From Ruditapes philippinarum (lineage: Eukaryota), in assembly GCF_026571515.1 (NCBI RefSeq), contig NW_026856121.1, positions 186,001 to 250,000 of the forward strand: a stretch of 64,000 bases of DNA, written 5' to 3'. Below are positions 556 to 44,425 of the stretch, piece after piece. Position 1 is the stretch's first letter, and every line of letters begins with the position of its first letter. Both the position numbers and the translations under genes were made by a program. The notes under the pieces were generated by a model. The model was not told the origin of the DNA. It did no database searches and saw only the letters and a list, made by a program, of their open reading frames with translations.

Positions 556-2088
556 ACACTTCCTCCCCCGTGGTCGATATAAAATATTACATTTACTATT
601 CTTTAAATGTTGAGCAGACCAAAATTAATCACGAAGTTATTTACAATTGCATTCACATTTACCTAAACATTCAGTACTAATTAACGTTTGCTAAATACAT
701 ATTTCATGTGAACACGCAACCGTAATAACAGCGCCTTTGTGTAGCTTTATAACGGCGATAATTTGCAAGTTGAAACTTGTTTTTGAAGACAAACGTTCGT
801 GTGTTTTACATAATAAAGTGTTCAAGACACAGTTTTATTGACATTTAAAGCAGCACTTAAAATGGCACTTACAATCCGCGTAATTTTAAGCTGAAATATT
901 TTCGGTTTTTAATGAAAAACCAGTATGCTCTTTTATGAAATCAAACATACAAAAAGAAATACATGTAACAGTAGCACAACTAAGTTTAAACTTTACGTAA
1001 TCAAGATTTGAAAAAAAACATTGCATAGTACATACATATATTCTAATCCTTCTGAGCAAGATAAGACAAAAGACTTACGATTGTTTCCTTGTTGATCTTT
1101 GTTCTATTTTTTAAGGTACATGTCAGCCATATACATGTTCATAAAACCATAACAAAGTAGAGAATTACCAACCGGTTTTCTTGCTGCAGTATGCATACAT
1201 GAATATTGATCAGCGCCGTGCAGCGGTAACATGATACATGTTAACAAAAATTCGTCTGCTCTGCTGTGTACATGGCTCTACTTATTTAAAAAAATAGCAG
1301 GCTCAATTATTTGAGCTGTTGTAAAAAGAAAGAGAAAACCAACGTAAAACTACATCTTGTTTTTCTACATACAACAGAATAGTAGCTGATTGTTTATTAA
1401 CAGTTCAAAATCAAGTGTAACACCATAATTAAATATCATTTCGTGAAATGTACGAAACAGATTGCTTACATTTTTTTCTGTTTTTATTCTCTAATTTTGT
1501 TACCTTTACTCTAGTCACTATATTTTAAACGGCACAGTTGCTATTGGGGGTCATTTTGCTATGTAAATCGTCAGGTACCTGTTTATTTATTTTTGAATTA
1601 TCCAAGTCCTAAATACTAGCTGAATGTATGTATATTTTAATTTGAGCGAAAAACTCCAATAAAATGATCATATGAATATTTACATATTATGAAAGAAACA
1701 TAAAACAATATCCGGTAAGTATTTATGTTCAAGAATTTAAAGTTAGTTAAAAAGAAAAATACAAAAATCGAAGTCAAAGAACACAATAAACAATCAGACA
1801 AAGGTAAAGTATATATATTATTCGCTAAATGGTCATATATAAACAAAATTAATATATCTTATAAATTACAAAGCAGAAATGTATTTATTCAAAAGAAATA
1901 CATGTATTTACAAAATCTGCACGCAAAAATTTAGTCATGAATTTTCTGTTTTGTCGTTTCAAGATGATGGTCTAATGCACTTCTCTATGGTGAATTAAAC
2001 TTAAAGCATGTCTTTGTCATATAGCATGTGGCCTCAATCGTATAGTATATAAGTAAGACAGAAGCCAGATGGATGGGGGCAGTTAGAT

Positions 2089-5000
2089 TTATCCTAGATT
2101 ATAGACGAGGAATTCGTTTTTGTCTCTCTGACATACTATCAGCTTTGATCTTTTCTTATCGCACCACAGTGCAGTTGGCCGCTTTGCACCATTCAATTTA
2201 TTGAGGACAGTTCCGAAAATCTTCTCACCATCTGCATCCAAATGCAACACGGTGCTGGACTCATATTCACATACAAGCAGGGTTTTGTCCATTGACAAAC
2301 TTATTCCTCTTGACATCTTTAGCTCCTGTTCTCTTAAGGTAAATAGATGATTACCTTTTCTATCAATGGTTTCGAGACCCCCATAACCATCGACGATAAA
2401 CAGTTTCTCGCCGTCCGCACTTAAGGTCAACTTTGAAAAGCAAACCAATTCTGCATTTGATTTATATAGAAGATGTTTTCCCGATCCATCACTGTTATAC
2501 GTGTACACGAATCCTTCATCAGTAACAAAGAATTTTTTCTTATTGTAAATCAGACCAAGAATGGAATGCTCAAGCTCGAAGCTATTTTCTACTACCAAGT
2601 TGTCCTTGACATTCATTATCTGTATTGTTTTTCCCCATAACCCAACGGCTGCCTGGTTGTTTTCCATATAACACACGTCATATGGTGCATTAGGAAGCTC
2701 AATCTGGGTGACGAAATTAAATGTGCTGTCGAACTTCTTTAGACGTTTGTTGTTTTCATCAATGAATAGAAGGTCTCCATTTGGGAGGGCGCAAATTCCA
2801 TTGATCCAGCATATTGCATCATCAAGTTCCACTCTGGCATTATATTCTTTGACATCTGTCTTAGCATAGTTGATTTTCTCAGCCTGTGTTGTCTGTCTAA
2901 GTCCAGGACATGCTCTATAAAGATATATTATTGTGTAATTTTATCAGAGGGCAATTTCAATAAAAATGAACATTTTTGTATCTAAGATGTAGAAGTTTAT
3001 GTCAATAAAGCAAATATGCAATGGGCATAGATTTACATGGGCATCTGCATTCAGTTTGTGGCACGCAACATTGAAATAATTTGACCGACTTTAGTTACAA
3101 CGTTACGTTGCCATGCAGCAACATTCTGAAGTATATATATTCGAATCGTAATTTGGAACAGTGTGTTCCAATTATGGTGTCTATATGATTTTATAAATGT
3201 AATGTAAGTTATCATCTATCATCGTTTCAATACAATTTGTGAAATTATAGAATCATAATTACTGTTATCGAAATAAATTTAAATATCTGCATAAAATAAG
3301 AAACAAATTAGAATATATTAAAAAAGGACCAAAAATTATTAAAGCGCTGTTCTTTATATTTTGTACATTATATTATCATGTTTCAGCAGATTTGACAATA
3401 AATGAATTTTGTTTCAAACCTGTGATGCCGCAATGCGCAGATATGACAACAAAACTGCTCATCGTCGTTACAAAACATCACGATAGGGTGTGCATGGCCA
3501 GATCTACAGCTCAAATCATCATACGTGCCTATAACCAAACCTTGTTCACCTTTTATAAAAGGTAATTACAACTTTATTTGACAAGAAAAAAAAACAAAAA
3601 CATTCAGTGCAAAAGAGAGATTTATCTCTTACTTTTTTCTCAGGGTAATTAAATCTTCGACAGCGAAGAAGTGCATATACCTTTAATTATATATATTTTG
3701 AAAATGATTACGCAAAGAATAAGAGTGTTTTAAATCATTAAAAAACTGTTACTTTCTGTGTTATCTAAGCTACACGGCAAAGAGCAGAAAGGAATGAAAA
3801 TATTGTTGACTACATTACATGTATTTGTATTAGATTAATTTTGGTATATCTTTAATTGTTCTATGATTAATTTATTTTTACCTCAAATATGTTTATAGTT
3901 TACTTACTCAAATGATTTTCTGTTTCTGTTATACTTGATTCCATTACATGACATTTGACGTGAATGTTTCCTCCAAATTCTTTCTTTAAAGTTTCCGAAA
4001 TGTCGGTAAGTACAGCTTTGAAATCTGACGCAAACAATTTTTTCAGCACCTTCTTCATGGACCGGGCACTGGCACATTTAATATTTAAAAGGACATGGTT
4101 GTATAAGACTTCATGAATAGAGGCTCCGTCAATACTTTGTATGATTTTCGTGAGATTTCGTGCAGCGTCCACCATCGCATCGCTCGTTATCCTGATTACA
4201 TTTGGTCTTTGATTCTGGGCAACTTTTCCAAGGACCACGTGGAAGGCATTTAATAATAGAAGTGTTCCTTTGGTGACATTCTCGGCCTTCTGAGAACGAA
4301 TTTCTATACGTGCCTCAATAACTGGAGAGAGAAAAAGGCATCATAATCATCAAAAATCGTGGACCTTGTTTTTGAAGACTTTGTTTTCGTCCAAGTTTAT
4401 ATCAAGTTTATATTTGTTACTTAGTATATTTATATTTTGAATTTTGATTGTCCAATTTGATGTCACATCGCCTTTTTGATAGCTGTGGACTTTTATTTAA
4501 TCCAACTTTATGTCATACTTTCTTTTATTACTTTGTAAATTAATACTTTTGATAACTTAAAGTTGTTGTCTTTGTTTTAAGCGGACTTTGTTTTGTTGAA
4601 CTTTATGTCACCCGTTCTTTACATACTTTTGAAAGTATATCAGTACTTTAATTTTAAAAACCAATGATAAACGTCTGACGCCGGTTAAGCTTTAGACATG
4701 GAAAATTCTAACAATGTGTTGTGCTCACTGTGACATAATAAGCTGCATCCCAAGTAAAGAGCAAATGTGAATATTGCTATTCATCATATAAATGTTCAGA
4801 CAAACTCGCTTAGAATTCTATCAACATTTGTTTATCTTCAAGAAATATTTTATAAGAGTATCAAAATGATATATTCTTACCAATATTCAAAATACTTATG
4901 AAAAGATGCCCATTGTAGACTCACCCGCATTAATAGACGGACAAACGAAAATAACGAGTTTTTCTTTTTATCAACGAAATATAAACAAAAACTAACAAGA

Positions 5001-5977
5001 ACAACATACCATGCTCATATGCAAAGTCGATACCTTCTTTCAGCCTAGGTTTTGTCAGTGATTCCTCGAACCTTCGCAACATAAATTCGTACTCTGAAAC
5101 GAAACATTAGATAGATCTAAACAGTTATCTAATGTTTTAGGTGATATTGAATCTGAATTCCTTAATAAATTGATTTCTGGATCTGATTAATAACGTCTTT
5201 ATTATTAATATGAAAATATGTTTAAATTGTCCAAGAACGTATAAACACATGTTTGAAGAATGAGAATCAAATTTGCCAAATAAACACACACAAAAATCTC
5301 CAAAACATATTTGACATTAGAAAACCAACATATTGAATACGTTTCGACCCCCTACCTTTCATTTCCTCAATTGGATTCGATGTGTTTTTCTCATGTTTTA
5401 GTCGTTTGGCCTTGACACTGCCATCAATTTCTGCGACCATTTTGTTATCGTATTCATGACAAGCTCTGAGGCGTACCATTAGTTCTGCAATTTCTGCATG
5501 AGCTGAATCTTTTATCAGATCCTGGCATCTGTCATATGTTTCTTGGCCAATTTTCGCAGACAAACTGAGTAGAACCACGACGAGGTCTGACATGTCACGG
5601 GTAAATTCATGCTCCTCGTAGACTGCCAAATATCTATGAATCAGATCATTGCGGGAGTAACCAAAGGACTTTATTTGGATGCGCTCATGAAGGGTCAAAT
5701 CTTGCCCGAAAAGATCTAGAAGAATTTCCGACAGTAAACCAATGTCCCATGATTCTAAATCCGTATTGACGTGACCTTTTGATGGATAGAGCTTCTTAAA
5801 TTGACTATCATGTTTGAACAATTCACGCATATCGTTTTCCTTTGCTGTTAAGATATCAGACAATGATTTCTTACAGGTGTTTAATTCTCTGTTAATCAGA
5901 CTTCTCAGCACAAATGGGACCCCTTCTCCCAACAACAGCATATACCGCAGGTGATGTTCACCCCCGGAAGATGACAT
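2089..5977 (-). CDS. Five-exon gene (~670 aa): DZIP3-like HEPN domain + TRADD-N-like middle domain + C-terminal NHL/SGL-type beta-propeller
   Basis: Hand-built exons (minus): 5977-5341 (alternative donor 5356), 5093-5010, 4321-3904, 3680-3633, 2914-2089. All are GT-AG and phase-compatible; the total is 2013 nt = 671 codons. The N-terminus has QF..LYP...WDIGLL..IL...RNDLIH (HEPN Rx4H at 5636-5653). The last exon has repeated propeller blades (INGICALPNGDLLFID, PYDVC, SRGISLS, RPTALWCD). A splice acceptor at 5995 precedes the ATG; a likely 5'UTR exon donor is at ~9550. Confidence 0.8.
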
Positions 5978-6155
5978 ACTTGTCTTTAAATGTTCTGAAA
6001 ATAATAAAATGATTGGTATATGGGACCCAATCACGTAATGATCGGTTCAGTAAAATCTTTCTACTTCTTTTTTTTTAAATTTTTTACACGATTTATTAAC
6101 AATATAGTCAAGCTCGGTATGTTGTGATAAAGAATTTTCATCATTTTCTGTAGTT

Positions 6156-7480
6156 GGTTTAAACATATTTTATTTAGAATATTTGTACATGTGTAGATAA
6201 CAACATAACAATAATTATAGATTTTGGCCGAAAGCAGAAGCTTATAGAAGCCATTATCTAACAATAACAATCTTCAATGTCTGTGGTGGTTGTAATAAAC
6301 AAGTTACCAAAAAAAACGCATTTGATAATTAATTAATTCGCATTAATGCAAGATTGAAAAGGAAAAATGAAATGTTAATGGTAAGGACAAACTTTTAGTA
6401 AGTTTTGACAAAAATTAAGTAAAAAACTACAGAAAACAACTTAAGAAAAAAAAAACACAAAAAGGAAATTAAAAAAATAAAGATAAGGACAAGAAAAGAA
6501 TATAAGCAGCATAGCAGTAGCAGTCAGACATTATATAAATCGTTTCGTAGAATCAATATAAAGGTATACAGACTTGAAAAGCTCTACGTTTTGGTTGTTT
6601 GAAAGGGAATTAGAACCATGCAAAAGCAGAGTGTGAGTTATGATCAAGGATCTATCCAGCTGTATGATGTTCCTATAGAGGATATCTCGCATATGTTGAT
6701 ACAAAGGACAGTTTAGAAGAAAATGACACACTGTTTCTGTTTGACCACAGGCGCATGTGTTTGATTCGGAAATATTTTTTCGGAAAAGATCATCATTTAA
6801 GGAACTACAGGCAAGTCTTAAGCGAGTATGCAGGATTTGAAGTTTGCGAGGCCCTGTGGTTAAAATAATTAGGGGTTTGTGTGGGTTTGAAAGGAGTCGC
6901 TTGAATTGTTGTAAAGATTCTGATGATTTGTATTCTGAGGGAGCGTGTTCCAAGAACGGATGCTAGACGGGATGAGAGAGTTTTGATTAAAAGGATGTTC
7001 GACATAGATAGGAGGAATATCAGAGGATTTCTTGAAGGTGTATCTTCGTTTTGACGTGTTGGATAAGAGTGTGTAAGTAAGTAGGACCATAAACTATTTC
7101 GAATTTTGTAAATAAAAGACCAGTTTGTGATTACTACGTCGAGTTGATAATGATTCCCATCCTAGTCGTCATAAAATTTTCAAGAGAACAAAGTTTAGTA
7201 GCACCTGTGACTATTCTGGCAGCCTCGTTTTGAATCATATCTAATTCATGCTTTTCGCTAGCTGAACAATTATCAAAAAGTATATCTCCATTACTCTAAT
7301 AATGGACGGACTAAATGTCAAATATAATGTTTCTAATGTATTTCTGTCGAGTGTAAATTTTAGACTACGGAGAATATTGATCCTTGTCCAAGCTTTGTTT
7401 TTAATATATTCTAGATGATTTGACCATGAACAATCGTTTGATAGAACAACTCCTAAATGTTTGTGAGAAGAAGCTTCAAA
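6156..7480 (-). mobile_element. 5'-truncated CR1/L2-type non-LTR retrotransposon remnant (RT C-terminal region)
   Basis: Frameshifted ORFs with the typical tail motifs (HKHLGVV, SFIPSSIRSWN-like, HTRLRLACSSLN, CACGQTETVCHFLLNCPLY). The 3'UTR ends in AATAAAATATGTTTAAACC (minus) at ~6156-6177. It lies in the inferred 5'UTR intron of the HEPN gene. Confidence 0.85.
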
Positions 7481-9784
7481 AATTTTATGTAGTTAAAAAT
7501 TAGCTGTGAAATAAATGAAATAAAATCGATATCTTAGATGCAGAAAAAATTGTAAATAAAAAAAAAATATTCTATTCAAAACAACTTTATTGATCCGGGT
7601 TCTGCTTGACAACGTATTTTGCTAGTACATAAATGAAGAATGTCATATCAGTCGTTCACATATTAGTACATGTACATGTAGTTATTTTCAACAACTTCTT
7701 AAAAAGAATTTATCTTGTAACCGTATCACGAACTTAAACTTTTGGCAGAAACTCACGATAAACAAGTTGTGACGGGTCAATCTCCTGATCAATATAATAG
7801 TAAAAAGGTTATGTTTGGTTTAAACCTCTTGAGATTGGAAAATCAAATAAACAATGGACAACAATCAATAAAGTAAGATTTTCACCAACTGAACCATTAC
7901 ACACATTACCTATGAGGTCACGTTTTATCATCAAAACATTTCAGTCCATTTGAACTTGAGATAAAACACAGCTTTTTATTACATCTCCTATATAATTTAT
8001 CCACTTTTATGAAAACTCATACTAAAATACAGTGATTTAGAATTAAGATCAACATATTTGGTATAATTTATGAATATTTTTCATCAGTTAAATTAATTAA
8101 GAAATTTTTAAGTGTTGTCAAAATAATCGTGCATTTAATGTTTGGCTGCTTAACTAAGGAAAATCGCCAGTCTTTATTTAGATAGTGTTATTAATCTTAA
8201 ATATAAGACAGCACCAATAGAAATATTTGTTTAATAGCGATCCATATTTGAAAATGACGTTGATCTATTATAAATGACGATAGTTCATTCTAATTCTGAA
8301 TGACCTAAGTCCTCATCAGTATCTGTCAGTTGTGATTCTATGAGCGACCACATACATCCTCATAAGCACCGGACTGTAGCTTCTATTTATTCTACCACTT
8401 TATCTGAAGACTACAACCACAAGTTGAAACAAAAGTTGTCAACATTTACTTGTGTTTAATTGAAAATTAATTTACTAATTTGGCACCAATTAAGAACAGT
8501 AGTTACTGTAATATTCCTATAGTAAATCGTAATATAATACGATTCATAACTCGGATAAATTTTTTTTGTTATAACTGCTATGAACATAAACAATATTAAT
8601 GTCCTTTTTGATGTATATATTGTACAAGTACAACAATAACAAAAGAAGTCATAATTAAGAAATCTGAGACAAAAGTTATAGTATCCAAATCGTATCAATT
8701 TACTACATGGTTGTTTTCAATAAAAATTAGTCGAGCGGTATGTTAAACAAGGTTGTAATTTTTAATTGGTGATCGATCAATGACATATATCCGATATGGT
8801 GACAAAAATAAAATATTTAAAATAGATTTTAAGTCTGTAATGTTTACTCTTGTAATGTATTAAAATTTCAAATTACATATATTTGATATGGTATTATTGT
8901 TTTGTTTTACAAATCAGTTATATATACTTACATTGTATAATTTATTAGAGAACATTATTATATAGAATCATTAAAAAAGACATTAATTTTTGTTATTGAA
9001 AATCAATGTTAATGTAATTATAGACCTGTACCGTACATTTATAGAACTAAATGTATTACAATAAACACTTTAAAATAGAACCTGTAACAATTCTTATTCG
9101 GTAACAAAATGTCATGGTATTGCTTTAATCGCGGACAGATTATTATTTAAGAAATAAATGAAGAAAACAATAAACGCTCGTCTATCTTCATTATTGTAAA
9201 TGCAACTTGCTAACATTTATGCTTTTTTAAATAGCAAAACTAAACCATATCAATTCTGAATAATATACAATATATGTAAAAAGTAAAACTCTTAATGATC
9301 ATTTTCGATCAAGAGTCAGTTTGTCAGTTACGGCATTTAGTAGAAAGACTCTAGCAATCATCTCTAAATAGTAATTAATGACTGATATAAATCATTCTCA
9401 ACTTTTCAAATCTGTTGTTTTTAATTGCAAAAAGTATTTATGTATTTCATATAAATTATAAGTATTGATGATATCATTTTTTAAAGACACCTTGTAATAT
9501 CAACTTATATATCATCACTTTAAGACAAATGGAATAAATATTTCTTACCTGATCTGGTCTTACAAAGACCTCTCAATCCAATTAAGGCTATGCACTTCAC
9601 TAAATATTGTTATAAACACGAGATGGGAATAAAGTGTGAATGATCTACGAAGAGATTGTCCATAAACAGTTCAGTTTTAAAAATAGTTTAGTTTAAAAGT
9701 TTATATTGATCAAATCAATACCTGTTGAACGATTAAAAACGTTAGCATTTCACGATATTATACAAATAGATCGATCGTTCGAGT

Positions 9785-11515: not shown

Positions 11516-12222
11516 AAATAGGAATCCCTATAGAAAGCCCAACGCGACAAAATTGAAAATGTTGCAGGCCCGATTTGATTGAGCCTGTTCATGGACGGAA
11601 CTGTCAAGTGCAAATACCGTCCACGCCCCCTAGCACCGGCTTAAACAAAATTCAACATTAAACATGAACTGGTAAAATTTAGAATTTTTAATCATCCGCA
11701 GATGTGCCCATATGGCGCTTATCATGGAACCTTCACTGTAACACGTTAGTGCCATTCCATGAAAAGCGGCATATGGTCCCCAGGTAAAAAAAATGCGTGT
11801 GCCCTAAACGAAAAAACAATGGGCGGAACTAAATAAAATGGAATTTTGAAAGGGGATCTGAGGTTATGAAGCCTGCATATCACAGATATAACGTCAAAAG
11901 ACAAATTTAAAAAACAGGCCTCATATCCTAAGGGTGATTCAACAGTATTCAAGTGAGGAATACTGGAACCACTCAACAAGAAAGATGCCGAATAGAAAGA
12001 ACTAAAATACCACAAGCACAACAATAAAGTCGTGCTGAACGATCTTTAAGGATCGGAAATATAACATCCCTGATTGAATATACAGAGTGACTTTTTACAG
12101 CCTCCACACGGCACAAACAACGCTGATGTGGCGATAAAATAGAGTGAAATAAGAATCCCTAAAGAAAGCCCAACGCGGCAAAATTGAAAATGTTGCAGGC
12201 TCGGTTTGATTGAGCCTGTTCA
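11516..12222 (+). mobile_element. Non-autonomous element: ~500-bp core flanked by direct copies of a ~130-bp hairpin-forming repeat
   Basis: The repeat is at 11516-11642 and (truncated) 12146-12222. The core plus repeats recur in inverted orientation at ~58855-59405. Confidence 0.6.
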
Positions 12223-13372: not shown

Positions 13373-16300
13373 TTATGGAACTTCTTTCTCGCAAATAGGA
13401 TAAACACCGTCGGTTTGCAGACCGTGTAGGCACGTTACATCGTCAAATTTGTAACCAAATATATCAGATATCCATATACAATGACTTGACTGAGGCCAGT
13501 CGGGCAAGTCAGGATACCAGAAATAACTTGTCATCGGAATTGCCTCATTATCAGCCGTTTTATAAGCATCAGTAGCAAAAGGGTCCGAGGCGTTAGCATT
13601 GCTTCCATCTATCCAATAACTGTATCCGTGTATACCTGTCAAATAAAGTGCTACGATTAGAGAGAGGAACTCAGTCATTTTTATTGTTTACATTTCGTAT
13701 ATCAGCTGATTATATTTATTTATCATAAATTGTTATATATTATTCTATTATAATTCCGATATTTGCCCGTTGTATAGTAACAAAAAGAGGTGATTTATGA
13801 CAGAATGAATCACCCTGTAGTATGTATTATTTTCATGATATAAAACTGCGACAACTCTCATAGATATGCATTGTCACATAAGGACAAGATAGTAGACAAG
13901 ATGGTACTTTAATGTACTCAAACGTAATATCATATCCAAACCATGATATAATCTGAAATAGGTCTAGCGTTCATTTATTTTCAACAGAAAGTAATATATC
14001 AAACTAATATATGTTATTCAATTTGATGCTAAATAATTTATAGGTAAAATTGTCTTACTTTCACATTTTGTCAGATTATTTCTTACAAAATCCATTTTTT
14101 CTTCTGTCAGTATCTTTAACAGTCTCCCTCCAATGGAAGTACAGGACAAAAGTGCGTCTGGCTGAGACACCTTTGTTGTTCTCATTAACCTGTAACGAAA
14201 ACATATAAATATATTAGATGATAAGACTATAGAGTCAGCATAAGTTAGGCGTGAACATATTCCGGAAGACTAAGACATGGTAGTATCCCCAATATTCCCG
14301 CATTTGTCGTCCTTAAAGCATGTATCATAGCATCAAATCGAAACACACACATAAACATTCGTGCGGGCACGTATTAGCATGCATCCGTGTTGTCGTGTAA
14401 TGTGGTTTGTCTACGTGAATGTACTCATATGTATTATATCAACACATTTTAGCCATATTTTTCATTTTTCGGAGAAAACAAATCGTATTTGGTGAAATCA
14501 AATAATTATGATTAAACGTTGAAGAGTTAAGGTAAAATATACACTCTTTTAATCTAATTGTCAATTTAATATCAGCACCAGACATAAGGTCACATTTTAC
14601 ATTTGACTTACTTAAACATATATACTGTGCCATCTGTTAATCTTGCCTCAGCCCAGTTTCCATCATTCTGAGGACATTCAATGAAGTACTCTAAAACCAA
14701 CAATCAATCATGAGTTAGTTAGGTTCAAAACATATTAAAAAAAAAAGATCTCTACAGTGCAATTTGCTGTTACATATGCATAACTTGTACAGGGAACACT
14801 AATCTGTCAGTCGGCACACTCTATTTACAGTAATATATGTACTGTTTATATAAGTATTTGCAGTATCAAAAATGCAAACAATCGCCGTTCAGCCAGGTAT
14901 TCAAAAAACAATTTTAAATGAAATAGATTCCTTTCTGAACAAAAAGCTATTGTTTCTCATTTTAAGAGAAATATTTCGAATAATATTATGTCCCCCACAG
15001 GAATCTACACACTGGTCACTACAAACCCCATAAGGTTTGAGGCCACAGAAGTGCAGCCACCGTTTATTCCTGTGTCACTATGATTGTCCCCTTATATCCC
15101 ATCAACAACTTATGTCACTATGATTCATCCCCTTATACCCAATTAACAACTTATGCCACTATGATTTATCCCTTATATGCCATCAACAACTTTGTCACTA
15201 CGATTTATCCCCTTATATCCCATCAAGAACTTTGTCACAATTATTTATCCCTTATATTCAATCAGTAACTTTGTCTCTATGATCTTCTTATATCCCATCA
15301 ACAACTTAAGCACTATGACGTATCCCTTATAACCCATCCACAACTTATGCCACTATGATTTATCCCTTATACCACATCCACAACAACTTTGTCACTATAA
15401 TGTGTCCCTTATATGTCATCAACAACTTTTTCACAATGATTTATCCCCTTATATCCCATCAAAAACTTTAGCATTATGATTTATACCCTAATATCCCATC
15501 AACAACTTGTCACAATGATTTATCCCCTTATAACCCATCAACAACTTTGTCACTATGATTTATCCCCTTATAACCAATCAAAATCTTAAGCACTATCATT
15601 TATCCCCTTATATATGTCATCAACAATTTTTTTCACCGTGATTTATCCCCTTATATCCCATCAACAACTTTGTCACAATATTTTATCCCCTTATATCCCA
15701 TCAACAACTTTAGCACTATGATTCATCCCCTTATAACCCATCAACAACTTTGTCACTATCATTTATCCCCTTATATATGTCATCAACAATTTTTTTCACC
15801 ATGATTTATCCCCTTATATCCCATCAACAACTTTGTCACAATATTTTATCCCCTTATATCCCATCAACAACTTTAGCACTATGATTCATCCCCTTATAAC
15901 CCATCAACAACTTTGTCACTATCATTTATCCCCTTATATATGTCATCAACAATTTTTTCACCATGATTCATCCCCTTATATCCCATCAACAACTTTAGCA
16001 CTATGATTTATCCCCTTATAACCCATCGACAACTTTGTCACTATGATTTATCCCCTTATATCCCATCAACAACTTGTCACCATGATTCATCCCCTTATAT
16101 CCCACCAACAACTTAAGCACTATGATTTATCCCCTTATAACCCATCAACAACTTTTCCCCTTATATCCCATCAACAACTTTAGCACTATGATTTATCCCC
16201 TTATAACCCATCAACAACTTGTCACCATGATTTGTCACCATGATTTATCCCCTTATATCCCATCAACAACTTTAGCACTATGATTTATCCTTTTATATTC

Positions 16301-17203
16301 CATCAACAGCTTATGTCTAACAAACATTGACATGAATACGGACAATAATTGCATATGTTACTATAATTAGTAATAAAATTGCGTTTTTTTTTTCTCAATA
16401 TACACGTTACGTTATTGACAACTGCATCGCAAAAAATGACCGTCGAGAATAAGTTGATAGATTTAGATAATCTAATCGGACAACAATAGTAATAAAAATA
16501 GGTTTACTATAATTAGTTATAAAAATGCAATAACAGGTCATTACATAGGGCAAGTGCGCCTTAAGTCCATTTTGGCACACTTGGTTCAAAATTGCCCTCG
16601 GGCTAAAGCCTTCGGGCAAATAAGTCACCAAGTGTGCCAATATGGACTAAAGGCACACTTGCCCCATGTAATAACTTCTACATATTGACACCACATTTTG
16701 TTTTCGTCATCTTACCTTCCGTTTTTACGTAGTACTCAGTATTCACAGATGTTTGTAAGTCATAGTTGTCCTGGAATGTTGAGTTGTGAAGCTGACACAT
16801 TTTATCATCGTGTTTGTAGAAATAACTAACGCATCTTACGTTTTCATTACACACATAGCCGCAATGTATAACACTAGCAGCTGGCTGCATGTTCATGTAC
16901 CCTGTTGCTTTAATGGTGTCAGTGAGAGAAGAATTTTTCACAAACTCGTACAGTCTTTTCCCGTCTATGGCAGTAAAGTTCAAAACTACACAAAATAAAA
17001 TCAAATAATATTTCAAAATAAGTAATGCAAACTAATTTGCCGTATAGATAATTAGCATATACTGTTAAAATAACATTTTTTCTGAAGATTTAACATATTG
17101 TAAGATTATTATATAAAAACATATTGTAAAAACCATACTGATACTCAAAAATGTATTTACCAATGAGCAATACGAAAAATGTTCTTTCAGGTGACATGGT
17201 CAT
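13373..17203 (-). CDS. Secreted PAN/apple domain + C-type lectin domain protein (~261 aa, 5 exons)
   Basis: Exons (minus): 17203-17161, 16985-16716, 14690-14612, 14189-14059, 13635-13373; phases consistent, 786 nt. Signal peptide MTMSPERTFFVLLIVLNFTAIDG; PAN pattern HCGYVC...CVSYFY...CQLH; CTLD with YWIDG, WYPDLPD, HCIWI, FDDVTC, PICE. Confidence 0.85.
15070..16315 (+). repeat. Minisatellite, ~40-bp unit, about 30 copies, in intron 2 of the PAN-CTL gene
   Basis: Unit CACTATGATTTATCCCCTTATATCCCATCAACAACTTTGT with variants. Confidence 0.95.
16540..16672. mobile_element. Palindromic (fold-back) MITE-like element
   Basis: TTACATAGGGCAAGTGCGCCTTAAGTCCATTTTGGCACACTTGG is mirrored by CCAAGTGTGCCAATATGGACTAAAGGCACACTTGCCCCATGTAA around a central GCCCTCGGGCTAAAGCCTTCGGGC. 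Confidence 0.7.
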
Positions 17204-18422: not shown

Positions 18423-21400
18423 ATGTACATGATAATGATGATTAGTTTGGCGTTGATATTTGTTCTCTTTATTGAAAGTAAGTACTTTCTATTTTAATCT
18501 TAACAATAAAAAAATTGTTCACAAACCTTTGTGAAAGTGTGGAGTTTACTGTTTTCATTCATTCATGCTCCGCCCACCCCAAATAAAAAAATAAACTCCA
18601 GTGTTATTTTTGTACCTGTTAATAAATTGCAATCAGGTTTTCTTCACTCTTGATCAATAAATGATATTAAACGCGTATTTGTCACCAAAAAGAATTTCTA
18701 AGAAATTATAAAATTATAGATTGCCAATAAGAACATTCGTCAAAGTAAATGTATAAAAACCAGGAATTTGAATTTGGAGCTGTGTACTAATCCAATAAAA
18801 TCTATATTGTATTCAACAATGTATATTGGCTTTTTTATGTCATTGCAAAGTTAACCTATTGTTTACATCACTTCGCTGCTTGTATCATTGCCTTTTAAAT
18901 ATCGTTTGCACTAATTTATACTCATTGATATATACATTTGGTATGACAAACTAGTGTTATATTGTGGCAATTAATTATTTGACATTAAAAAATAAAGTTT
19001 TATACACAAGTTATGGGTCTAGACCTACATCAAATGAAACCTTTATCTCGTGAAATTATTTCCAGTCCCGTCATGTCAATAACCGTAGTGAAGTCCTTTT
19101 AACATTGATTTCGTTTCTAAAATGATGATGGACTCACATTTACCATATTTGATCAAATTAATATGTTCAAGGTTCAGTTTATGCGGATACAAGTTGTCCA
19201 GATGCATGGGTAGCATACAAGGGTTCATGTTATCTGTTTGCTCACGACCAGTCGCAAACCTTTACAGAAGCTGAGGTGAGAACTTTTCTAGTTTATTATA
19301 TACTACTGCTGTAATAAAAACAGAATTTGGACGTTTGGCGTTGTATAAACACTCAAGTTGCCCAGTGTAGGGTAAATCTTTTATGATGGACTTGATAACC
19401 AAATAAAAGTATGTGGTGCATTACAAGATTGTTGTTAACATCGTTGTTGCTGTTTAAACTACCGGGAGACATTGCCATTTGTAAGATTTATAAGCATTGA
19501 ACATAAATATACTTGCTGGTTAAGGACTTTACAAGCTTGGTTTTCCGTGATTATGCAAGCAGCGATATGGTGTACAAATTTAAATCTGTTGTGAAACCAG
19601 TTTTTACAACATCACACCATACAATCGGATACACAACTGTCAGATAAGATGACAACAGTGATATCATATTATACATATAATATGATGGTCGGAGGGAATT
19701 ATATGTGAGGATCTCTTCAACTTTTACATCCATTTACTTTATCAATTTGTTTTTATCAGTCCAAATCATGGTTTCATATAATCACGTTATTGTTGTTACG
19801 ATATAAGCTAGAGTTATAATAAAGATAGCAGCATATAAAATTTTTAATGTAGATATTAAATACGGATAGTGCACAATATCAACAAATCGCGTAAATCGTT
19901 AAATAAAACAGCAACATTTTAAAATATTTTATTTGTGGTCATTTATTGATACAGCTGCAAACAAAAGACTATTAATATGATTCTTTGCGGATATGACCAG
20001 AAAGAATGTTCACAACAGAATGAAGCATTTTCATAATACATAAAATACATTTGTAGTATACATAACCTTTGTTTTACTTTCGAATTGTTTAACCTAGATT
20101 TGTTCTTATTGGCTTTTGAACTTTTATTCATATTTTCATGGAAAAGATCTATAAAATGATGCAACTATAGTCTGATGCATACAATAAGATCTATGGACCA
20201 ACATTAAGTAATACCTGGGATGTATGTAAACAATGGAAATCCCATTAACGATGCAACCCAAGACAAGTGGATTGACAACAAGCGCACATCGACCAGCATA
20301 AATTAGCTTGAGTTCGTCATTCCCAGAGGGTTCTCGATGAGCCGAATGACAGACTTTAGAACCCTCTTTATCTAGAATAACCCGTGTATCCTATACCTTG
20401 TATGTTCAGATGATTGTACATGTATATGTTCTAAATAAGCAGTGTTCTTAACTTATTTACCCACCGTGTTTATCTTTAACAATATAAAATGTCTCTCATA
20501 CGTTAAAATGATTATTTATTTTTCATGATTTATAAACACTGGTATGAATATTCAATATTTATTGCAATTGAATTTTGTTGAGTGCATACCAAATTTTAAT
20601 TTTGTGTAAAGTAAAGTAGTTTGCCATGACGAATTATAAATTAAAGTGTCTTTTATATAATAAATGTGTTTTCTCATATTTGTTTGATGATACCATAATT
20701 TATAATTGTAATTTCAGCATTTTTGTAATCAGCATTCGTCTCATCTTGTACATATTAATGATGTTCACGAGAACAACTTCCTTCAACAATTTCTGACCCA
20801 TTTCACTTGTAAGTTTTCCATTTCCTTGTGGTTGCATGTATAAATTGGGCATTTTCTAGTGGTCGCATTCATAAGTCAGGTGGTTTAACATGTATACATT
20901 TCAAAATAAATTTGAATCTTTACATATCCAGAAACACTCCATTTTTCAACTTCTTTCACAGTTATTGATAAATCGATCTTGTGAAAAAGTTACTAAGAAC
21001 ATTACAAGTACATATATTAGTTTGATCATATACATGCATAATCTTATTTCAAAGTTAACATTCTGAAGCTTAAAAGTAGTATAAGTTCGCGCATCGGTTG
21101 ATAATACTTCGGATTTTATGGTAAACATTCAACATTTTTATAATCTTTGATAAAATTAATCTTACTTGCTTCTTGATAAATCCACATGACAGATTAATTT
21201 AACTATGAGCAGCGGCGTAGCCGATTGAGTTACACGTCGAAAAAGTAATCTATGGTGGGCTGGACACGTGGGTTCGAACCCGGTAAGGGGCAATCCGTTA
21301 TATATATTTGAAACTAATTGCTTAGAACGCGTCCATGAGTGTTCAAATAAGTTTATAACTTCCAACACAATTGAACTATAATAATTCATATTAACTAATT

Positions 21401-22186
21401 TGACATTGGAATTATGTATAGTTTTGTGTATTCTGTAAAAGCAAATGATTGGTGGATTGGACTCTCTGATACAGTCATAGAAAGCGAATATAAATGGATA
21501 GACAGCAACACTATAGCTGATTACGTGGAATGGGGACCTCACGAGCCGAACAATAACCACAACGAGGACTGTTGTATCATCAACAGGCAAGAAGGCTTCA
21601 AATGGGCAGATGTGAAGTGCTCTCTACAGTTCCAGCCGATCTGCGAGAAAAAGTAAGTAGGAGATAAAACTTCCCCTTTTGAGCATCTCTGTATTCCATC
21701 CATGCATCTTTTAAATAAATCTTACCTTAAAAATCTTTTGGTAACATTGCCTTAAGTTATACATGTATACATCATTTAATGATCCTAAGTTCTAATCTAA
21801 TGCGGAATATGATACTATTTCTTGAAAAGAAACAAATTAAAGTAACTTTTTTTCATTCTTGAAGTAAATGATAATTCTATGAATATTCATCAGAGCCTCA
21901 TATACTGACTACTCGCCTGAGTCAGATAATTTGAATATTCATTGGAGCCTGATTCACTGAATATTCATCGACATTCTGATACCCAAATCTAATTCACTAA
22001 ATATTGAACGGTATTCTGATACACTGACTATTAAACTGAACCTGATACAATTTGTTCGTATGTATGTTTTCTAGGCTTAATGAGGGTCCATTCGCCGTTT
22101 CAGGCACTGAGAGTACGGAAACTGGACATGTCCCATTCATGTCCTTAAATGTTATTATCAACCAATATGTGACCTATACATTTTGA
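18423..22186 (+). CDS. Secreted perlucin-like C-type lectin (EPN motif), 5 exons
   Basis: Exons 18423-18477, 19172-19275, 20718-20808, 21442-21652, 22075-22186; phases consistent. Signal peptide, SCPDAW..YKGSCY, FC...SHLV, WWIGL, EPNN, WAD, PICE. The exact start Met and last exon are less certain. Confidence 0.85.
21208..21290 (+). mobile_element. Short tRNA-derived SINE head remnant (intronic)
   Basis: GGCGTAGCCGATTGAGTT ... GTGGGTTCGAACCCGG A/B-box-like; no convincing cloverleaf. Confidence 0.45.
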
Positions 22187-27220: not shown

Positions 27221-30200
27221 TTATTTAGTCAGATATATGGAAGGAACACTATAAAATTTTAGATTTGTTTGATATATGCAATCGCGGAAAAGCACACAAA
27301 ACCTGATAATTTCCCCCAACTGTTTGGAAATACTTGTATATCATACCTGACCAAACATTCGGAAATGCATTTATGGACCGTAGAGTTCATGTCTTTATAT
27401 ACATGCAAATGTTTTGTAATTACAATAGGAATAAATATATATTTTCTAGTTTTTCTTCGAATTGAGAATTTTAGATGTGACAAAAAAAACTTAAAATGAC
27501 GTCAAATATTACAAGGTATTACCGCGGTGCTCTATGTAACTTATATCACCCTTAATTAATGTTTGATATCAACTTGCAAGAGAACAAATGATGACAAAAC
27601 ATTATTATAACTTTGATGTATAACATGAAGGGAAACCGAACGTGGTAGCCTTGCTGCTTTAGGCGACGCGCTGTTGGTCAGATTGCAAAAAATGGCGGAC
27701 AAAAACCATTTAAGCAAACAATGTTCCTTGCAACATTGTTTACTTTAGTTGTTATTTAATTATGAACAGTCCGTAGGTCCGAATTGTGGCTTTAGTTAAC
27801 TTTTTTCAGTTTTGAAATAACTTTTGAACTATCGAGTGTGCCGATGTAATATTTTAAACAATAAACACTTTTGTATTGAATTGGAGTTGTTTTATTACGA
27901 CAAGTGATGGTACGTTGATAATAAAACAAATCAAACTATAACTAATGTTGATAATATTTATAACAAAATGCAATTAATAACTCTAAAATATATACTTAGC
28001 CTAAGATCACACACTTTTCGTCGTAAGGAATTACGTTTGTTCCTCATTAAACATACTTTCTTACGTGTCATCAAATCTGCCATCGACATAGTCAAATGTG
28101 AAATAAAACAAAAGAACAGGAAATATTTTTTTAAATAATTGCTGAAATTGATTAGTTTACCTCTCACAGATAGGTGCATGTGTCTGCAAGCAGCTAACGT
28201 CTACCCACTGGAAGTTAACGTGCAGTCTATCTAGGTACATAGATGCGCAATCTTCATCCAGCTTTCCCCCGTTACTGTTTGGCTCCCCAGGCACCCAGTC
28301 TTCATATTCAGGTCTCCGTTTTGTAGGGTACCATATCCATTCCCCTTCCACAAGTTCATCGGTGAGGCCAATCCACCAGCCCATCGCTTAATGTAAAATA
28401 AACAAATATTTCTGAATCAATTTGCAACCTTAATGCATTAATCAGTGTGACAAACCAAGGGAAAACAATGTTTATTAACCAACATAAGTATTTCATTGCC
28501 ACTTTTAAAATGTCTTAAGTGTCCTTCTAGGCTCCTTGCAGGTGGTTCTGTGTTCATCCTTTTTGTTGGGGGATGCGTTCATTGAATGCCGCCCATATTT
28601 GTTGATCTTTTTAACTTTGACAAATTTAGCTGAGCAGGAAGAATTTTACACATCGATACAAAAATCAACACGTCAAACATGAAAAGTACATTTTATAAGT
28701 GTAGACCTTTATTTGATAAAATTTATCATTGTGAAACCCTGTTCATACTGGTAACTGGTAACAAATACCGACGTGTTCACATAAAAATAAGTATAAATTG
28801 AACAGGTTTATATTAACTTATCGAAGGCATACATACTTTAAAAATATCAAAATATTCTTTTACCTAAACAATTTAACACACAAATTAACTATGAAGGAAC
28901 ACACGCTGCTTTTATAAATCATTGAATTATTTAAACTGTTAAGAATTAGTTTACATAATTATATAATTATTCTTACGTTTCAATCTCCTGAGAAAATCCT
29001 TGAGGAAATTGTTTTCATGCACGTCATCAATCACGACTAAATGCCCATTGTGTTGACTGCAAAATTGCTGTGTGAAATAAGAAGACATTTTAATAAAATG
29101 ACATTTTATTATCTCTCGAACTGTCATCACATTTTTACAGGCTTCAGTTTTAGAAGTGAACAGTTTGATGTGGTAACGTAAGTTGGCTGGATAAAATAGA
29201 AACAAACAAACAGAATCCATAAAAATAACGCACAAAAACTGCAAAATTGTAACAAATTAACTTAACCTACTTGTTCGCTAAAGAGTGTTTTTTTAATTCT
29301 CTTGTAAGATATGTCAGTACCACTATAGAAGTGCAAGATCATGATTACTATCTTATAACAAGTCGGACTTCCGTTCATACTCTCATAATCTCAAGACGCT
29401 GTTATTGTCAGAAGGAGTAAAGAGATACTATTAAGAGAAAAACTTAACCTTGACATTGTTCTTCAATATATTATTTTTTTTACCTTTTGGGATTTAGAAA
29501 TGCTATAGTTTTTATCTGATTTTGTTTCAAGAGATTTTCATGTCACTGCGGTCAATCAATTTAACTGAACTTTAACAAACCAAACAAGTAGATGAAATTA
29601 CAAATTTCTCCGCAAGTAACCGACTACTAATTTCATATGCTTTCATAGTAAGCGATGAGAGACAAAAATGACCATTAGACTCAATGTTAATATTGTCATT
29701 AAAAGTATTCTTGGCCCGTGAATCGACCCAGCGACCCCTCAATTATTAATCCAATACTCTCAATTTTGAGCTAAGCGAGCGAACTTTGGAAAATATAGAA
29801 AATCTAAATAGAAACCCCTTCTGGTGACAGAATCAAATAATTAAAAAAAACCGATAAATTCTAATTCTATTGTATGATAAAAATGATTATGGTGTCTTAC
29901 CCGTGCATCTGCGTAGTTAGATGCTCTATCTGGATTAAAAAGATAACATGATCCTCTGTCAGCCACCCATGTGTCCGGACATGAAGTATTACAAACAACG
30001 TCTCCTAAAAAGTTAGATTGACACTTTAAAGATCTTATGAAAACTAACCACCTACTGGTGAAAAACATCGTAGGTGTCCCAGCATCAGCGAGAACCCGAG
30101 TAAAACCATGAGCGGGAACCTAAATAGAAATAAGCAAATAAGCAAATTCGAGAGCTTCTTCATACACACACCCGCACGTATGCACTACACCCCATTCACA

Positions 30201-39730: not shown

Positions 39731-40489
39731 GGCAAAAAGTTTTTTTTTTCAAAACTACCTCGGTCAAACCTGAAATTCAAACTTGAGGAAAAAGTGTTCT
39801 AACTTTTGAAGTAAGTTAAAGTCATGACTAACATGTTATCTACTGCTTTTTTAAACTTCCGTGAAAATAAGCATGTATCTATAGACATGCCGCTTTAACA
39901 TTGATATTCATACTATGTTGATAACAAGGGACAAAGACTCCTGAACAACACGACATTTCACTTAATATAAATAGGCTCTATTCCACGTAAATCAATGGAT
40001 TAAATTGTATCTGTTATGTTGCTTTCCGAAGTGTTGAGTATTTTGCAACGAGCAGCGTGGTGTAATTGATATCTTGCGAGACCGGAGGTCATTGTAATAA
40101 TATCTGTTCACTAAATGATTTATTTATTTAATGTATCTGGTCTAATTTTCTAATTTATGTTGTTTATTCTATATTGTAATATATGTACCACATGGGTTTA
40201 TGACCTTCTGGTTTTGATTGAATAAAATCTTGAAAATCTTGAAATCTTATATTAAATTGATCATTGCAGCAGGCATTCTGGATGTCTAGTATGTTTGTTT
40301 ATAATGATTTCTCTCATTAAGACAGCGCCAGGTTGTGTTAGTTGTGTTATGTTTAACCAAGCTAAATGTTCAAGATCTCTGTAGACATATTAACTAGAAC
40401 GTACGGATGGTATAATCTAATAATGTATATTAAAATGCCTATAAGTTTACGTCTGTGTATGTATAAAAAGGGAAGAAGAGAATCTGAAG

Positions 40490-43400: not shown

Positions 43401-44425
43401 CCAAATCACTGGATCGGTTTGACTGACGTAGAACAGGAAGGTGACTGGAGGCACTATCCGTCTTTGAAAGAGGTCACTTTCTTTGATTGGGGGAAGCACC
43501 AACCCAACAATGGAAGAGTGTCCAACTGTGCCGCGTTCTGGGAGAGTTTTCAACATCTTTGGGTCGACGAACCATGCACCAACAAATTTCGACCTCTCTG
43601 TGAAATGAAGTAAGATAATTTATATAATTAATTTATTTTGATTATTATTATTTTACTAATATCCAAAGTCGCAAGAGCGCATTATTGTAAAGCAGATAAT
43701 CTTTGTCTATCAGTATACAATACTATATATATGTACATTGTTGAGTTTCATACTGAAATCTATTGTAGGAGTACATAAGAGTCAATTCTTTATTAGACAA
43801 GCGGCTAGCCGAGTGTGATATAGGTTTTGTTGATGTGTACGAGTTCAATTGAATAAGTATTGTTCTCAACATTGTATAATGACCTCGTTTTTACATTTTT
43901 AAACATTTTAACAGTACTTTGTTTCTTAAAGTATTGTAAGGAATTGATATAATTTTTGACCCTGAAAATGAGGCAAGATGGAGTACAATATGCATATGAT
44001 GTAGATGCAGCAAACTCTTGAAATTAAAACGAGGCTTTATTGGATGTGATATGTGCATTTGATAAGGATGCATTGTACTCTGGAAATAGAAACGAGGCTT
44101 TATTGAAAATTTTAGATCCGATTATGATTTCTATTGGAACATCACGTGATTCAGACAATGAAAGTTCATTGGTTATACTTTATAAAGTGTGAAATAAATA
44201 CATGTATTTCATTTGGTTATACTAAGATGTAACAGGTTTTAATGCTTTAATTGTCCTTTTCTATATGGGCCAACAAATAAACACAAAATTTATATATTTT
44301 GTAAAAGAATGCAGGTAAAATCACTTTGTTTTTAGTGGGTGATTATTTTAGTAAAAAGACATTTGTATTTTTATATATTATACTTGTATTTTTATATATT
44401 TTACAGACTCAACTCAAGTGAATAA
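40490..44425 (+). CDS. Secreted coiled-coil + C-type lectin protein (QPN motif), 5 exons
   Basis: Exons 40490(or 40511)-40820, 41959-42047, 42947-43037, 43399-43609, 44407-44425; phases consistent. Signal peptide, CSRYDFQEKILEKVLRMEF coiled-coil leader, TCPDGW..FQNSCY, HWIGL, QPNN, WVD, PLCE. Confidence 0.85.

What the first reader, a model, noticed from the sequence alone, without database searches (positions are those of the whole stretch)
2089..5977. Intact HEPN-RNase / TRADD-N-like / beta-propeller gene: a candidate animal sensor-effector defence protein
Seen: three separate ORF-track fragments and two small exons splice into a single ~670-aa open frame. It has an intact Rx4H motif (RNDLIH), a middle segment (IHEVLYNHVLLNIKCASARSMKKVLKKLFASDFKAVL) resembling TRADD-N-like adaptor domains, and a terminal propeller like those of the expanded bivalve TRIM/NHL proteins, but no RING or B-box. 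Established: HEPN Rx4-6H domains are dimer-activated RNases in prokaryotic toxins, Cas13 and RNase L/Ire1 KEN relatives; DZIP3-like HEPNs occur as effector domains of invertebrate NLR-like proteins. Inference: a ligand-sensing propeller directly coupled to an RNase effector without an NTPase, located in a lectin/peptide immune cluster.
Basis: partly seen in the sequence, partly recalled or inferred. Interest (0 to 1): 0.7.

Follow-up and report, generated by a model that had tools for sequence, protein, structure and literature searches.

The report
Conserved clam RNase-propeller fusion gene
This bivalve gene is spliced into one 691-amino-acid protein that joins a predicted RNA-cutting domain, an adaptor-like domain, a zinc finger and a propeller; it is an unusually conserved, single-copy offshoot of a large shuffled family of bivalve defence genes already described in oysters, and it likely works as a ligand-triggered RNA cutter, though that activity is untested.

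Summary
Transcript-like contigs join five coding exons into 691 aa. Exon 4 (3420-3549) encodes a complete B-box, so "no B-box" is wrong. The architecture is HEPN (DZIP3-like) + TRADD-N-like + B-box + NHL-type propeller, with no RING, coiled coil or NTPase.

The theme is in print: Kaur et al. 2021 list oyster HEPN+Ig+DED+TRADD-N+propeller and TRADD-N+B-box+propeller proteins. This genome has at least 126 related HEPN exons, followed by cGAS-like, RIG-I-like, PARP14-like or propeller exons.

What is distinctive: the gene is single-copy and under purifying selection (19 of 23 listed coding variants synonymous), and the propeller and B-box are its best-conserved parts, which argues against an arms-race sensor. 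R109 and H114 are kept in 5 of 5 clade members. However, the basic residue three places before R (41 of 44 intact paralogues) is lost in all five, the residue after R varies, and the TRADD-N Ser/Cys hallmark is replaced.

Best reading: a ligand-gated HEPN RNase responding to a conserved ligand (0.45). Main rival: a non-catalytic scaffold (0.3). New variant of a known kind; interest 0.38.

The parts
9549..9648 (-). Non-coding first exon (no ATG; in-frame stop), spliced to the acceptor at 5994
   Evidence: X2 variant rows at the transcript contig's depth place a piece at about 9548-9648; loose ends at 5998 in X9 and X14 match this exon
5356..5994 (-). Exon 2: 17 nt of 5' UTR, ATG at 5977, residues 1-207: DZIP3-like HEPN domain (about 5-172) and a basic patch near 189-196
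   Evidence: Pfam HEPN_DZIP3 E 1.3e-4, below cut-off; all-helical model, pLDDT 92; best VIA match Csm6, Z 8.5; joint 5093/5356 in 4 of 4 runs
5636..5653 (-). Rx4H motif, R109 to H114, at the end of predicted helix 96-114
   Evidence: R and H invariant in 5 of 5 clade members
5010..5093 (-). Exon 3: 84-nt linker exon, residues 208-235
   Evidence: joints 4321/5010 and 5093/5356 in 4 of 4 runs
3908..4321 (-). Exon 4: TRADD-N-like (ferredoxin/RRM-like fold) domain, residues 236-373; His311 replaces the family's Ser/Cys
   Evidence: Atlas score 0.94 to clusters partly annotated TRADD-like_N; model pLDDT 88; VIA TRADD-N 1f2h, Z 5.7, 107 aligned; alignment A3
3420..3549 (-).
   Evidence: joints 2914/3420 and 3547/3906 (cut +2) in 4 of 4 runs; Pfam zf-B_box E 2.5e-4; database protein P0011 carries the same join
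2089..2914 (-). Exon 6: end of the B-box, short linker, NHL-type beta-propeller (about 440-691) and stop codon
   Evidence: Pfam NHL E 8.7e-4 in the window; above cut-off in orthologue P0001; weak TRIM2 NHL match, E 0.007
1700..2088 (-). 3' UTR (approximate; contigs reach 1700-1749)
   Evidence: contig pieces

Best explanation
The gene encodes a 691-aa HEPN + TRADD-N-like + B-box + NHL-type propeller protein, a single-copy conserved offshoot of the bivalve HEPN/TRADD-N modular family, and it likely works as a ligand-gated RNase that responds to a conserved ligand rather than to fast-changing pathogen shapes. Shown: exon joints, reading frame, domain order, R109/H114 kept in the clade, purifying selection, and the modular family around it. 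Predicted: the HEPN and ferredoxin-like folds. Inferred from known families and untested: the propeller binds an invariant ligand (a host protein, an RNA or a fixed pathogen feature); the B-box and TRADD-N-like domain relay this into self-association; two HEPN domains then form the composite active site and cut RNA in a stress or defence response.
For: Gene: four joints in 4 of 4 runs; 691-aa frame.

HEPN: Pfam HEPN_DZIP3 hit. The confident helical model has His114 at the end of a helix, where PMC3710099 (passages) places the motif. The best of 48,161 chains is Csm6 (Z 8.5, rmsd 3.7, 116 aligned), with titled HEPN structures 2hsb, 3o10 and 7ae2 also in the top 50. R and H are invariant in 5 of 5 clade members, whereas all 22 Ig-type paralogues examined have lost the His.

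Modular family: 32 of 39 middle-domain hits lie under 7 kb downstream of a HEPN exon. Such pairs are followed by Mab-21, CARD plus RIG-I C-terminal, or PARP14-like exons, which are nucleic-acid-sensing immune domains.

Published model: repeats sense a ligand and a TRADD-N switch releases the effector (PMC8195603).

Conserved ligand: the propeller is 75% and 54% identical in two full-length orthologues, against 70% and 40% for HEPN and 48% and 35% for the TRADD-N-like domain. 19 of 23 listed coding variants are synonymous.
Against: No activity, ligand or tissue data.

Motif surroundings are altered: the position three before R is K/R in 41 of 44 motif-intact paralogues but G or S in 5 of 5 clade members, and the residue after R is N/D/H in 40 of 44 paralogues but N, N, A, T, D in the clade.

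Conservation of R and H is weak evidence, because 43 of 168 HEPN positions are invariant in the same five sequences.

The TRADD-N Ser/Cys hallmark is present in 40 of 41 paralogues but replaced by His here and by Asn, Asn and Asp in three close orthologues; only the distant P0005 keeps Gly-Ser.

All Pfam scores for the window's own domains are below the curated cut-offs. VIA Z 8.5 is under the level the tool calls telling for helical bundles. Two raw-read RNA runs showed little or no exon cover and no listed joint for this gene (4 to 6% of each run read).
Confidence: 0.45

Rival explanations
1. Non-catalytic scaffold or brake: the HEPN domain has decayed into a binding module, and the protein is kept as an adaptor or as a regulator of its many active HEPN/TRADD-N paralogues.
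For: Loss of the basic residue before the motif in 5 of 5 clade members, Ala or Thr after R in 2 of 5, and replacement of the TRADD-N hallmark. Motif-less HEPN domains are common in this family: 25 of 69 paralogues examined lack R..H. PMC3710099 notes non-catalytic HEPNs. Single copy and strong constraint.
Against: R and H are both kept out to the 45%-identical P0005, whereas decayed paralogues lose the His. Tyr107 and Arg115 are invariant in the clade and might stand in for the lost basic residue (inference).
Confidence: 0.3
2. Domesticated RNA regulator: the propeller binds specific host RNAs, as TRIM-NHL propellers do, and aims an active HEPN at them. This would be a housekeeping or developmental RNA-decay enzyme, not a defence protein.
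For: B-box plus NHL-type propeller, with a weak TRIM2 NHL match. NHL domains of Brat and LIN-41 bind RNA (PMC4015489, PMC5908797; listing and abstract starts only). The propeller is the best-conserved large domain. A basic patch after the HEPN is kept in 4 of 5 clade members.
Against: The RNA-binding surface was not modelled. The propeller is slightly acidic overall (30 K/R, 35 D/E). It belongs to a large bivalve propeller family with at least 140 other hits, and the closest HEPN relatives examined are fused to immune-type domains.
Confidence: 0.13
3. Arms-race pathogen sensor: a variable propeller recognises pathogen ligands and fires the RNase, as one of many interchangeable copies.
For: Matches the published model for oyster HEPN..TRADD-N..propeller expansions (PMC8195603). 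C-type lectin genes lie nearby.
Against: No close duplicate: the searches for the TRADD-N-like and B-box exons return only this locus, and the next best HEPN and propeller hits are 39% and 34% identical. The propeller is the most conserved large domain, while in the expanded Ig-type paralogues it is the least conserved (mean 69% against 74%; 21 non-independent pairs from 7 genes). pN/pS is about 0.06.
Confidence: 0.12

Closest known systems
Crassostrea gigas HEPN+Ig(x4)+DED+TRADD-N+beta-propeller expansion (Kaur et al. 2021, PMC8195603; e.g. EKC27565.1, XP_011431928.1), with Ig+DED+TRADD-N+BBOX+propeller XP_011421835.1
   Same: N-terminal HEPN, TRADD-N-type middle domain and C-terminal propeller, no NTPase; a B-box between TRADD-N and propeller in some members; the HEPN..TRADD-N head also fused to Mab-21/cGAS. 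This genome holds its own Ig-containing expansion of this type.
   Different: No Ig or DED domains; about half the length; single copy and conserved rather than expanded; TRADD-N Ser/Cys replaced. The exact four-domain string was not found by term searches of the stored, cut supplement.
DZIP3/hRUL138-like HEPN proteins (Pfam PF18738; PMC3710099; pearl oyster PMC9646362)
   Same: Helical HEPN fold with the Rx4H motif at the N-terminus of a modular invertebrate protein; pearl oyster also has many without NACHT.
   Different: Score below the Pfam cut-off; altered residues around the motif; partner domains are a B-box and propeller rather than NACHT/LRR or RING.
TRIM-NHL proteins (TRIM2/3/71, Brat, LIN-41)
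   Same: B-box2-type finger followed by an NHL-type propeller.
   Different: No RING and no room for the coiled coil (about 20 residues between B-box and propeller); HEPN and TRADD-N-like domains stand in their place.
Csm6, Cas13 and RNase L-type HEPN RNases
   Same: Predicted fold and R..H motif; Csm6 is the top structural match. Activation by dimerisation is recalled knowledge.
   Different: About 10% identity; different sensor domain; catalysis not shown here.

Membership tests
DZIP3/hRUL138-like HEPN (PF18738) | Profile match at the curated cut-off | tested here: inconclusive
   22.3 bits against 27, E 1.3e-4; orthologue 18.6 bits. Near relatives such as P0008 and P0010 pass, and P0004 carries the family in precomputed annotation.
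DZIP3/hRUL138-like HEPN (PF18738) | Helical HEPN fold with the motif at the end of helix 3 | tested here: met
   Model pLDDT 92, helix 96-114 ends at His114. Csm6 tops the VIA list and several HEPN structures are in the top 50; Z values are modest for a helical bundle.
Catalytic HEPN RNases | Rx4-6H motif | tested here: met
   R109/H114 in the window and in 4 of 4 orthologues with this domain
Catalytic HEPN RNases | Polar N/D/H directly after the Arg | tested here: inconclusive
   Asn in the window; N, A, T and D in the four orthologues
Catalytic HEPN RNases | Metal-independent RNA cleavage by a HEPN dimer | not testable with these tools
   needs a bench assay
TRADD-N superfamily | RRM/ferredoxin-like two-layer fold with a four-stranded sheet | tested here: met
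   Model pLDDT 88, four strands. VIA rows are mostly ferredoxin-like folds; TRADD-N 1f2h has Z 5.7, rmsd 4.2 and the longest alignment of the 50 rows (107), but ranks 12th.
TRADD-N superfamily | uS (or uC) motif at the beta2-beta3 turn (PMC8195603 section 8) | tested here: not met
   His311 in the window; S/C in 40 of 41 paralogous domains; Gly-Ser in distant orthologue P0005. So the domain is read as family-derived but degenerate here.
TRADD-N superfamily | Pfam TRADD-like_N (PF20694) match | tested here: inconclusive
   No hit for the window; 1 of 44 aligned members hits at E 0.027; Atlas score 0.94 to clusters in which 14-23% of members carry the family
TRIM (RBCC) / TRIM-NHL | RING domain | tested here: not met
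   No RING pattern in P0001 or P0005; no Pfam RING hit
TRIM (RBCC) / TRIM-NHL | B-box2 zinc finger | tested here: met
   Full Cys/His pattern; Pfam E 2.5e-4, just under the cut-off
TRIM (RBCC) / TRIM-NHL | Long coiled coil after the B-box | tested here: not met
   Only about 20 residues separate the B-box from the propeller
TRIM (RBCC) / TRIM-NHL | Six-bladed NHL propeller with an RNA- or protein-binding top face | tested here: inconclusive
   One NHL repeat above the cut-off in P0001; propeller not folded, so blades and surface were not examined
Oyster HEPN-Ig-DED-TRADD-N-propeller expansion | Ig repeats and DED between HEPN and TRADD-N | tested here: not met
   Only a linker of about 60 residues; no Ig or DED Pfam hit
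HEPN-NLR / STAND receptors | NACHT or other STAND NTPase | tested here: not met
   All 691 residues are accounted for by other domains; no NTPase hit in the full-length orthologue

The most novel reading that the evidence does not exclude
A domesticated immune module: out of a shuffled family of more than a hundred HEPN/TRADD-N defence genes, one lineage froze into a single conserved gene in which an NHL-type propeller aims an active HEPN nuclease at specific host RNAs. That would be an animal sequence-directed RNA-decay enzyme built from defence parts.
Probability: 0.13. Interest if true: 0.72.

Novelty: new variant of a known kind. Interest (0 to 1): 0.38.

Why it matters
Invertebrate DZIP3-like HEPN domains are predicted RNases in hundreds of bivalve genes. 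My searches of the held library (listings and passages only) turned up predictions but no biochemical test. This gene is compact, has no NTPase switch, is single copy, has verified splice joints and has orthologues with natural changes next to the catalytic Arg. That makes it a tractable protein for asking whether these domains cut RNA and how TRADD-N-type domains gate them. It also shows that such a fast-turnover family can leave a conserved member.

Tried and rejected
Homodimer prediction of the HEPN domain: no verdict, score 0.02; not used either way.

No holder of the stretch is on record as RNA. The contig runs are 'RNA?' guesses, so only their joints were used. No DNA run was laid as a control. 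A processed retrocopy is unlikely because two exon searches found only this intron-containing locus.

Foldseek found nothing at E <= 0.001 for either model (TRADD-N 1f3v was rank 6 at E 0.15). Profile searches of PDB sequences with A2 and A3 gave nothing credible. Pfam on the middle domain was blank.

Two word-index protein searches each returned only P0001; candidates were capped near 8,000.

Alternative fourth exons at 3633-3680 and 3633-3654, and skipping that exon, were rejected for frame breaks or lack of joints. An upstream coding exon was rejected because the 5' exon has no ATG and an in-frame stop.

The propeller identities at the end used a wrong frame and were discarded; they were redone.

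A PF20694 search of the genome gave 2 loci, neither this gene. A paper search on bivalve B-box/NHL expansion returned 0. Searches of earlier findings by sequence and by the full word set returned nothing.

The propeller and the whole protein were not folded, because both fold jobs went to the two uncertain domains.
Full report
Gene model. The window is part of a 1.4-Gb animal assembly. The nearest named relatives of its proteins are Mercenaria mercenaria models, so I read it as a bivalve, probably a clam. Three long minus-strand frames lie at 5267-6046, 3900-4340 and 2089-2940. Contigs from public runs guessed to be RNA join them. In one search the joints 5093/5356, 4321/5010, 3547/3906 (cut +2) and 2914/3420, all with GT..AG ends on the minus strand, appear in 4 of 4 runs from four studies. 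In one search single contigs of 2 of 2 contig runs span all the exons. The two raw-read RNA runs (4 to 6% of each read) gave low or no exon depth and no listed joint for this gene, so expression is not universal or is low. The coding exons are 5356-5977, 5010-5093, 3908-4321, 3420-3549 and 2089-2914, giving 691 aa. A database protein (P0011) matches the last 361 residues at 359 positions and carries the same joins. A non-coding first exon lies at about 9549-9648 and has no ATG.

Correction to the finding. Exon 3420-3549 encodes a B-box2-type finger: Pfam E 2.5e-4, just under the cut-off, with the full Cys/His pattern in both full-length orthologues. Absence of a RING and of an NTPase holds.

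HEPN domain. Pfam HEPN_DZIP3 hits at E 1.3e-4, below the cut-off. A model built on 84 sequences is all-helical with pLDDT 92, and His114 ends helix 96-114, where PMC3710099 (passages read) places the motif. Foldseek found nothing. VIA ranked Csm6 first among 48,161 chains (Z 8.5, rmsd 3.7, 116 aligned), with entries titled HEPN (2hsb, 3o10, 7ae2) also in the top 50. That Csm6, Cas13, AbiF and Roquin carry HEPN folds is recalled. The tool warns that such Z values are not decisive for helical bundles.

Middle domain. The Atlas scores it 0.94 against clusters in which 14-23% of members carry TRADD-like_N. The model (44 sequences, pLDDT 88) has four strands in a ferredoxin-like arrangement. TRADD-N 1f2h is rank 12 (Z 5.7) with the longest alignment of the 50 rows. 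The Ser/Cys that PMC8195603 (section 8 read whole) calls the hallmark of the beta2-beta3 turn is present in 40 of 41 paralogous domains but is His311 here. Three close orthologues have Asn, Asn and Asp, and only the distant P0005 keeps Gly-Ser. I read the domain as TRADD-N-derived and degenerate.

Propeller. NHL repeat E 8.7e-4 in the window and above the cut-off in P0001; weak TRIM2 NHL match; 140 other hits at E <= 1e-8 among 141 scored candidates. It was not folded.

Family context. The HEPN exon has 126 other matches in the genome (150 of 189 candidates scored, so a lower bound). A search with one paralogue's middle domain gave 39 hits. Of these, 32 lie under 7 kb downstream of a same-strand HEPN exon (the script was given 46 of the 127 HEPN hits). 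Behind this head I found Mab-21/cGAS-like, CARD plus RIG-I C-terminal, and PARP14-like exons on the same strand; their splicing was not checked. Twenty of 127 HEPN hits, self included, have a same-strand propeller under 40 kb downstream, against 8 upstream and 0 on the opposite strand (given 71 of the 141 propeller hits). Ten such loci were fetched. They carry further exons, with Ig or DUF4559-type frames seen in all ten, and 8 of 10 show a B-box-like exon before the propeller. All ten lack the His of the first HEPN motif. Of 69 paralogous HEPN exons fetched, 44 keep R..H. The Atlas also holds a 113-member, mostly molluscan cluster of about 617 aa with HEPN_DZIP3 and NHL (score 0.89, a lead only).

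What sets this gene apart. In a 99-row HEPN tree the window groups (99/98) with four database proteins and with none of the 59 same-genome paralogues included. Ten fetched Ig-type paralogues and 57 unfetched hits were left out. Exon searches found no second copy. Identity to the full-length orthologues P0001 and P0005 is 67% and 45% overall: propeller 75/54, B-box 75/58, HEPN 70/40, TRADD-N-like 48/35. In seven Ig-type paralogues the propeller is instead the least conserved part (mean 69% against 74%; 21 non-independent pairs). Of the 40 variant rows shown (16 more not shown), 23 are coding: 19 synonymous and 4 not, pN/pS about 0.06. R109 and H114 are invariant in 5 of 5 clade members, but so are 43 of 168 positions, so this is modest evidence. 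The position three before R is K/R in 41 of 44 motif-intact paralogues and G or S in all five clade members. The residue after R is N/D/H in 40 of 44 paralogues and N, N, A, T, D in the clade.

Mechanism. I commit to a ligand-gated RNase (0.45). A conserved propeller binds an invariant ligand, the B-box and TRADD-N-like domain promote self-association, and paired HEPN domains cut RNA. Only the anatomy and conservation are shown; every functional step is inferred from HEPN RNases (dimer activation recalled) and from the model in PMC8195603. The rivals are a non-catalytic scaffold or brake (0.3), a domesticated RNA regulator (0.13) and an arms-race sensor (0.12).

Comparison with print. PMC8195603 (passages; sections 8 and 10 whole; supplementary file 4 by term search only, file cut when stored; file 13 not searched) describes Crassostrea gigas HEPN+Ig+DED+TRADD-N proteins ending in a propeller or Mab-21. 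It lists Ig+DED+TRADD-N+BBOX+propeller and TRADD-N+BBOX+BBOX+propeller proteins. The exact four-domain string did not appear in those term searches; only 10 of 41 'HEPN+TRADDN' places and 10 of 30 'BBOX' places were shown. PMC9646362 (passages) reports 194 of 202 pearl-oyster DZIP3-like HEPN proteins with the motif and proposes RNase activity. PMC9634614 was seen as outline and abstract only. PMC4015489 and PMC5908797 were seen as listings with abstract starts.

Neighbourhood. C-type lectin exons at 21.4-21.7, 28.2-29.3 and 43.4-43.6 kb and a PAN-domain exon at 16.7-17.0 kb confirm a lectin-rich stretch. Nothing links them functionally to this gene.

Verdict. A real, expressed gene whose architecture is a compact, conserved variant of a published bivalve theme. 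New variant of a known kind; interest 0.38. The domestication reading would merit about 0.7 but has low probability.

Noticed in passing
L043-L045 (G000:C10904:26000-55999): HEPN exon with an intact motif, TRADD-N-like exon, CARD exon and RIG-I C-terminal domain exon on one strand: a candidate RIG-I-like receptor with a HEPN head. Database protein P0047 has HEPN-like, Death, CARD and DEAD helicase domains. Splicing not checked.
   Followed up: partly
L027, L030 (G000:C7602, C10816): HEPN + TRADD-N-like exons followed by a Mab-21/cGAS-like nucleotidyltransferase exon; the L027 copy is split into two frames.
   Followed up: partly
L038-L039 (G000:C12507): HEPN + TRADD-N-like head followed by PARP14-like RRM/KH exons.
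   Followed up: partly
L047-L066: Expanded subfamily with a His-less HEPN, Ig domains, a DUF4559-type domain, a TRADD-N-like domain, a B-box and a propeller. One frame after the DUF4559 exon (L058:2347-2694) has an RNxxxH-like motif, so a second HEPN-like domain may carry the active site.
   Followed up: partly
P0016, P0023; L008, L010: HEPN-like domains with an altered motif fused to SH2/SH3 domains, a Crk/Grb2-like adaptor architecture.
   Followed up: no
P0035, P0059, P0063: CARD repeats + TRADD-N-like + B-box + propeller: the same tail cassette under a CARD head instead of an intact HEPN.
   Followed up: no
window 6531-7492: Decayed reverse-transcriptase retroelement fragment in the first (5' UTR) intron (zf-RVT E 0.002).
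   Followed up: no
window 13373-17031, 19162-21653, 28160-30119, 40445-43610: Four lectin-type stretches: a PAN exon with a downstream lectin-like exon, and three C-type lectin genes on both strands.
   Followed up: partly
window 32740-34788: Broken pogo/Tc5-like DNA transposon: DDE_1 hit E 3e-11, with a PHD-like finger recognised by eye.
   Followed up: no
window 11570-12222: Highly repeated element with thousands of reads and a recurrent go-back joint 12219 to 11622 in one raw RNA run: probably a tandem or non-autonomous repeat.
   Followed up: no
L042:3263-6223: Frames beyond the gene's 3' end that look like a CLCC1/MCLC-type membrane protein (resemblance recalled; no Pfam hit).
   Followed up: no
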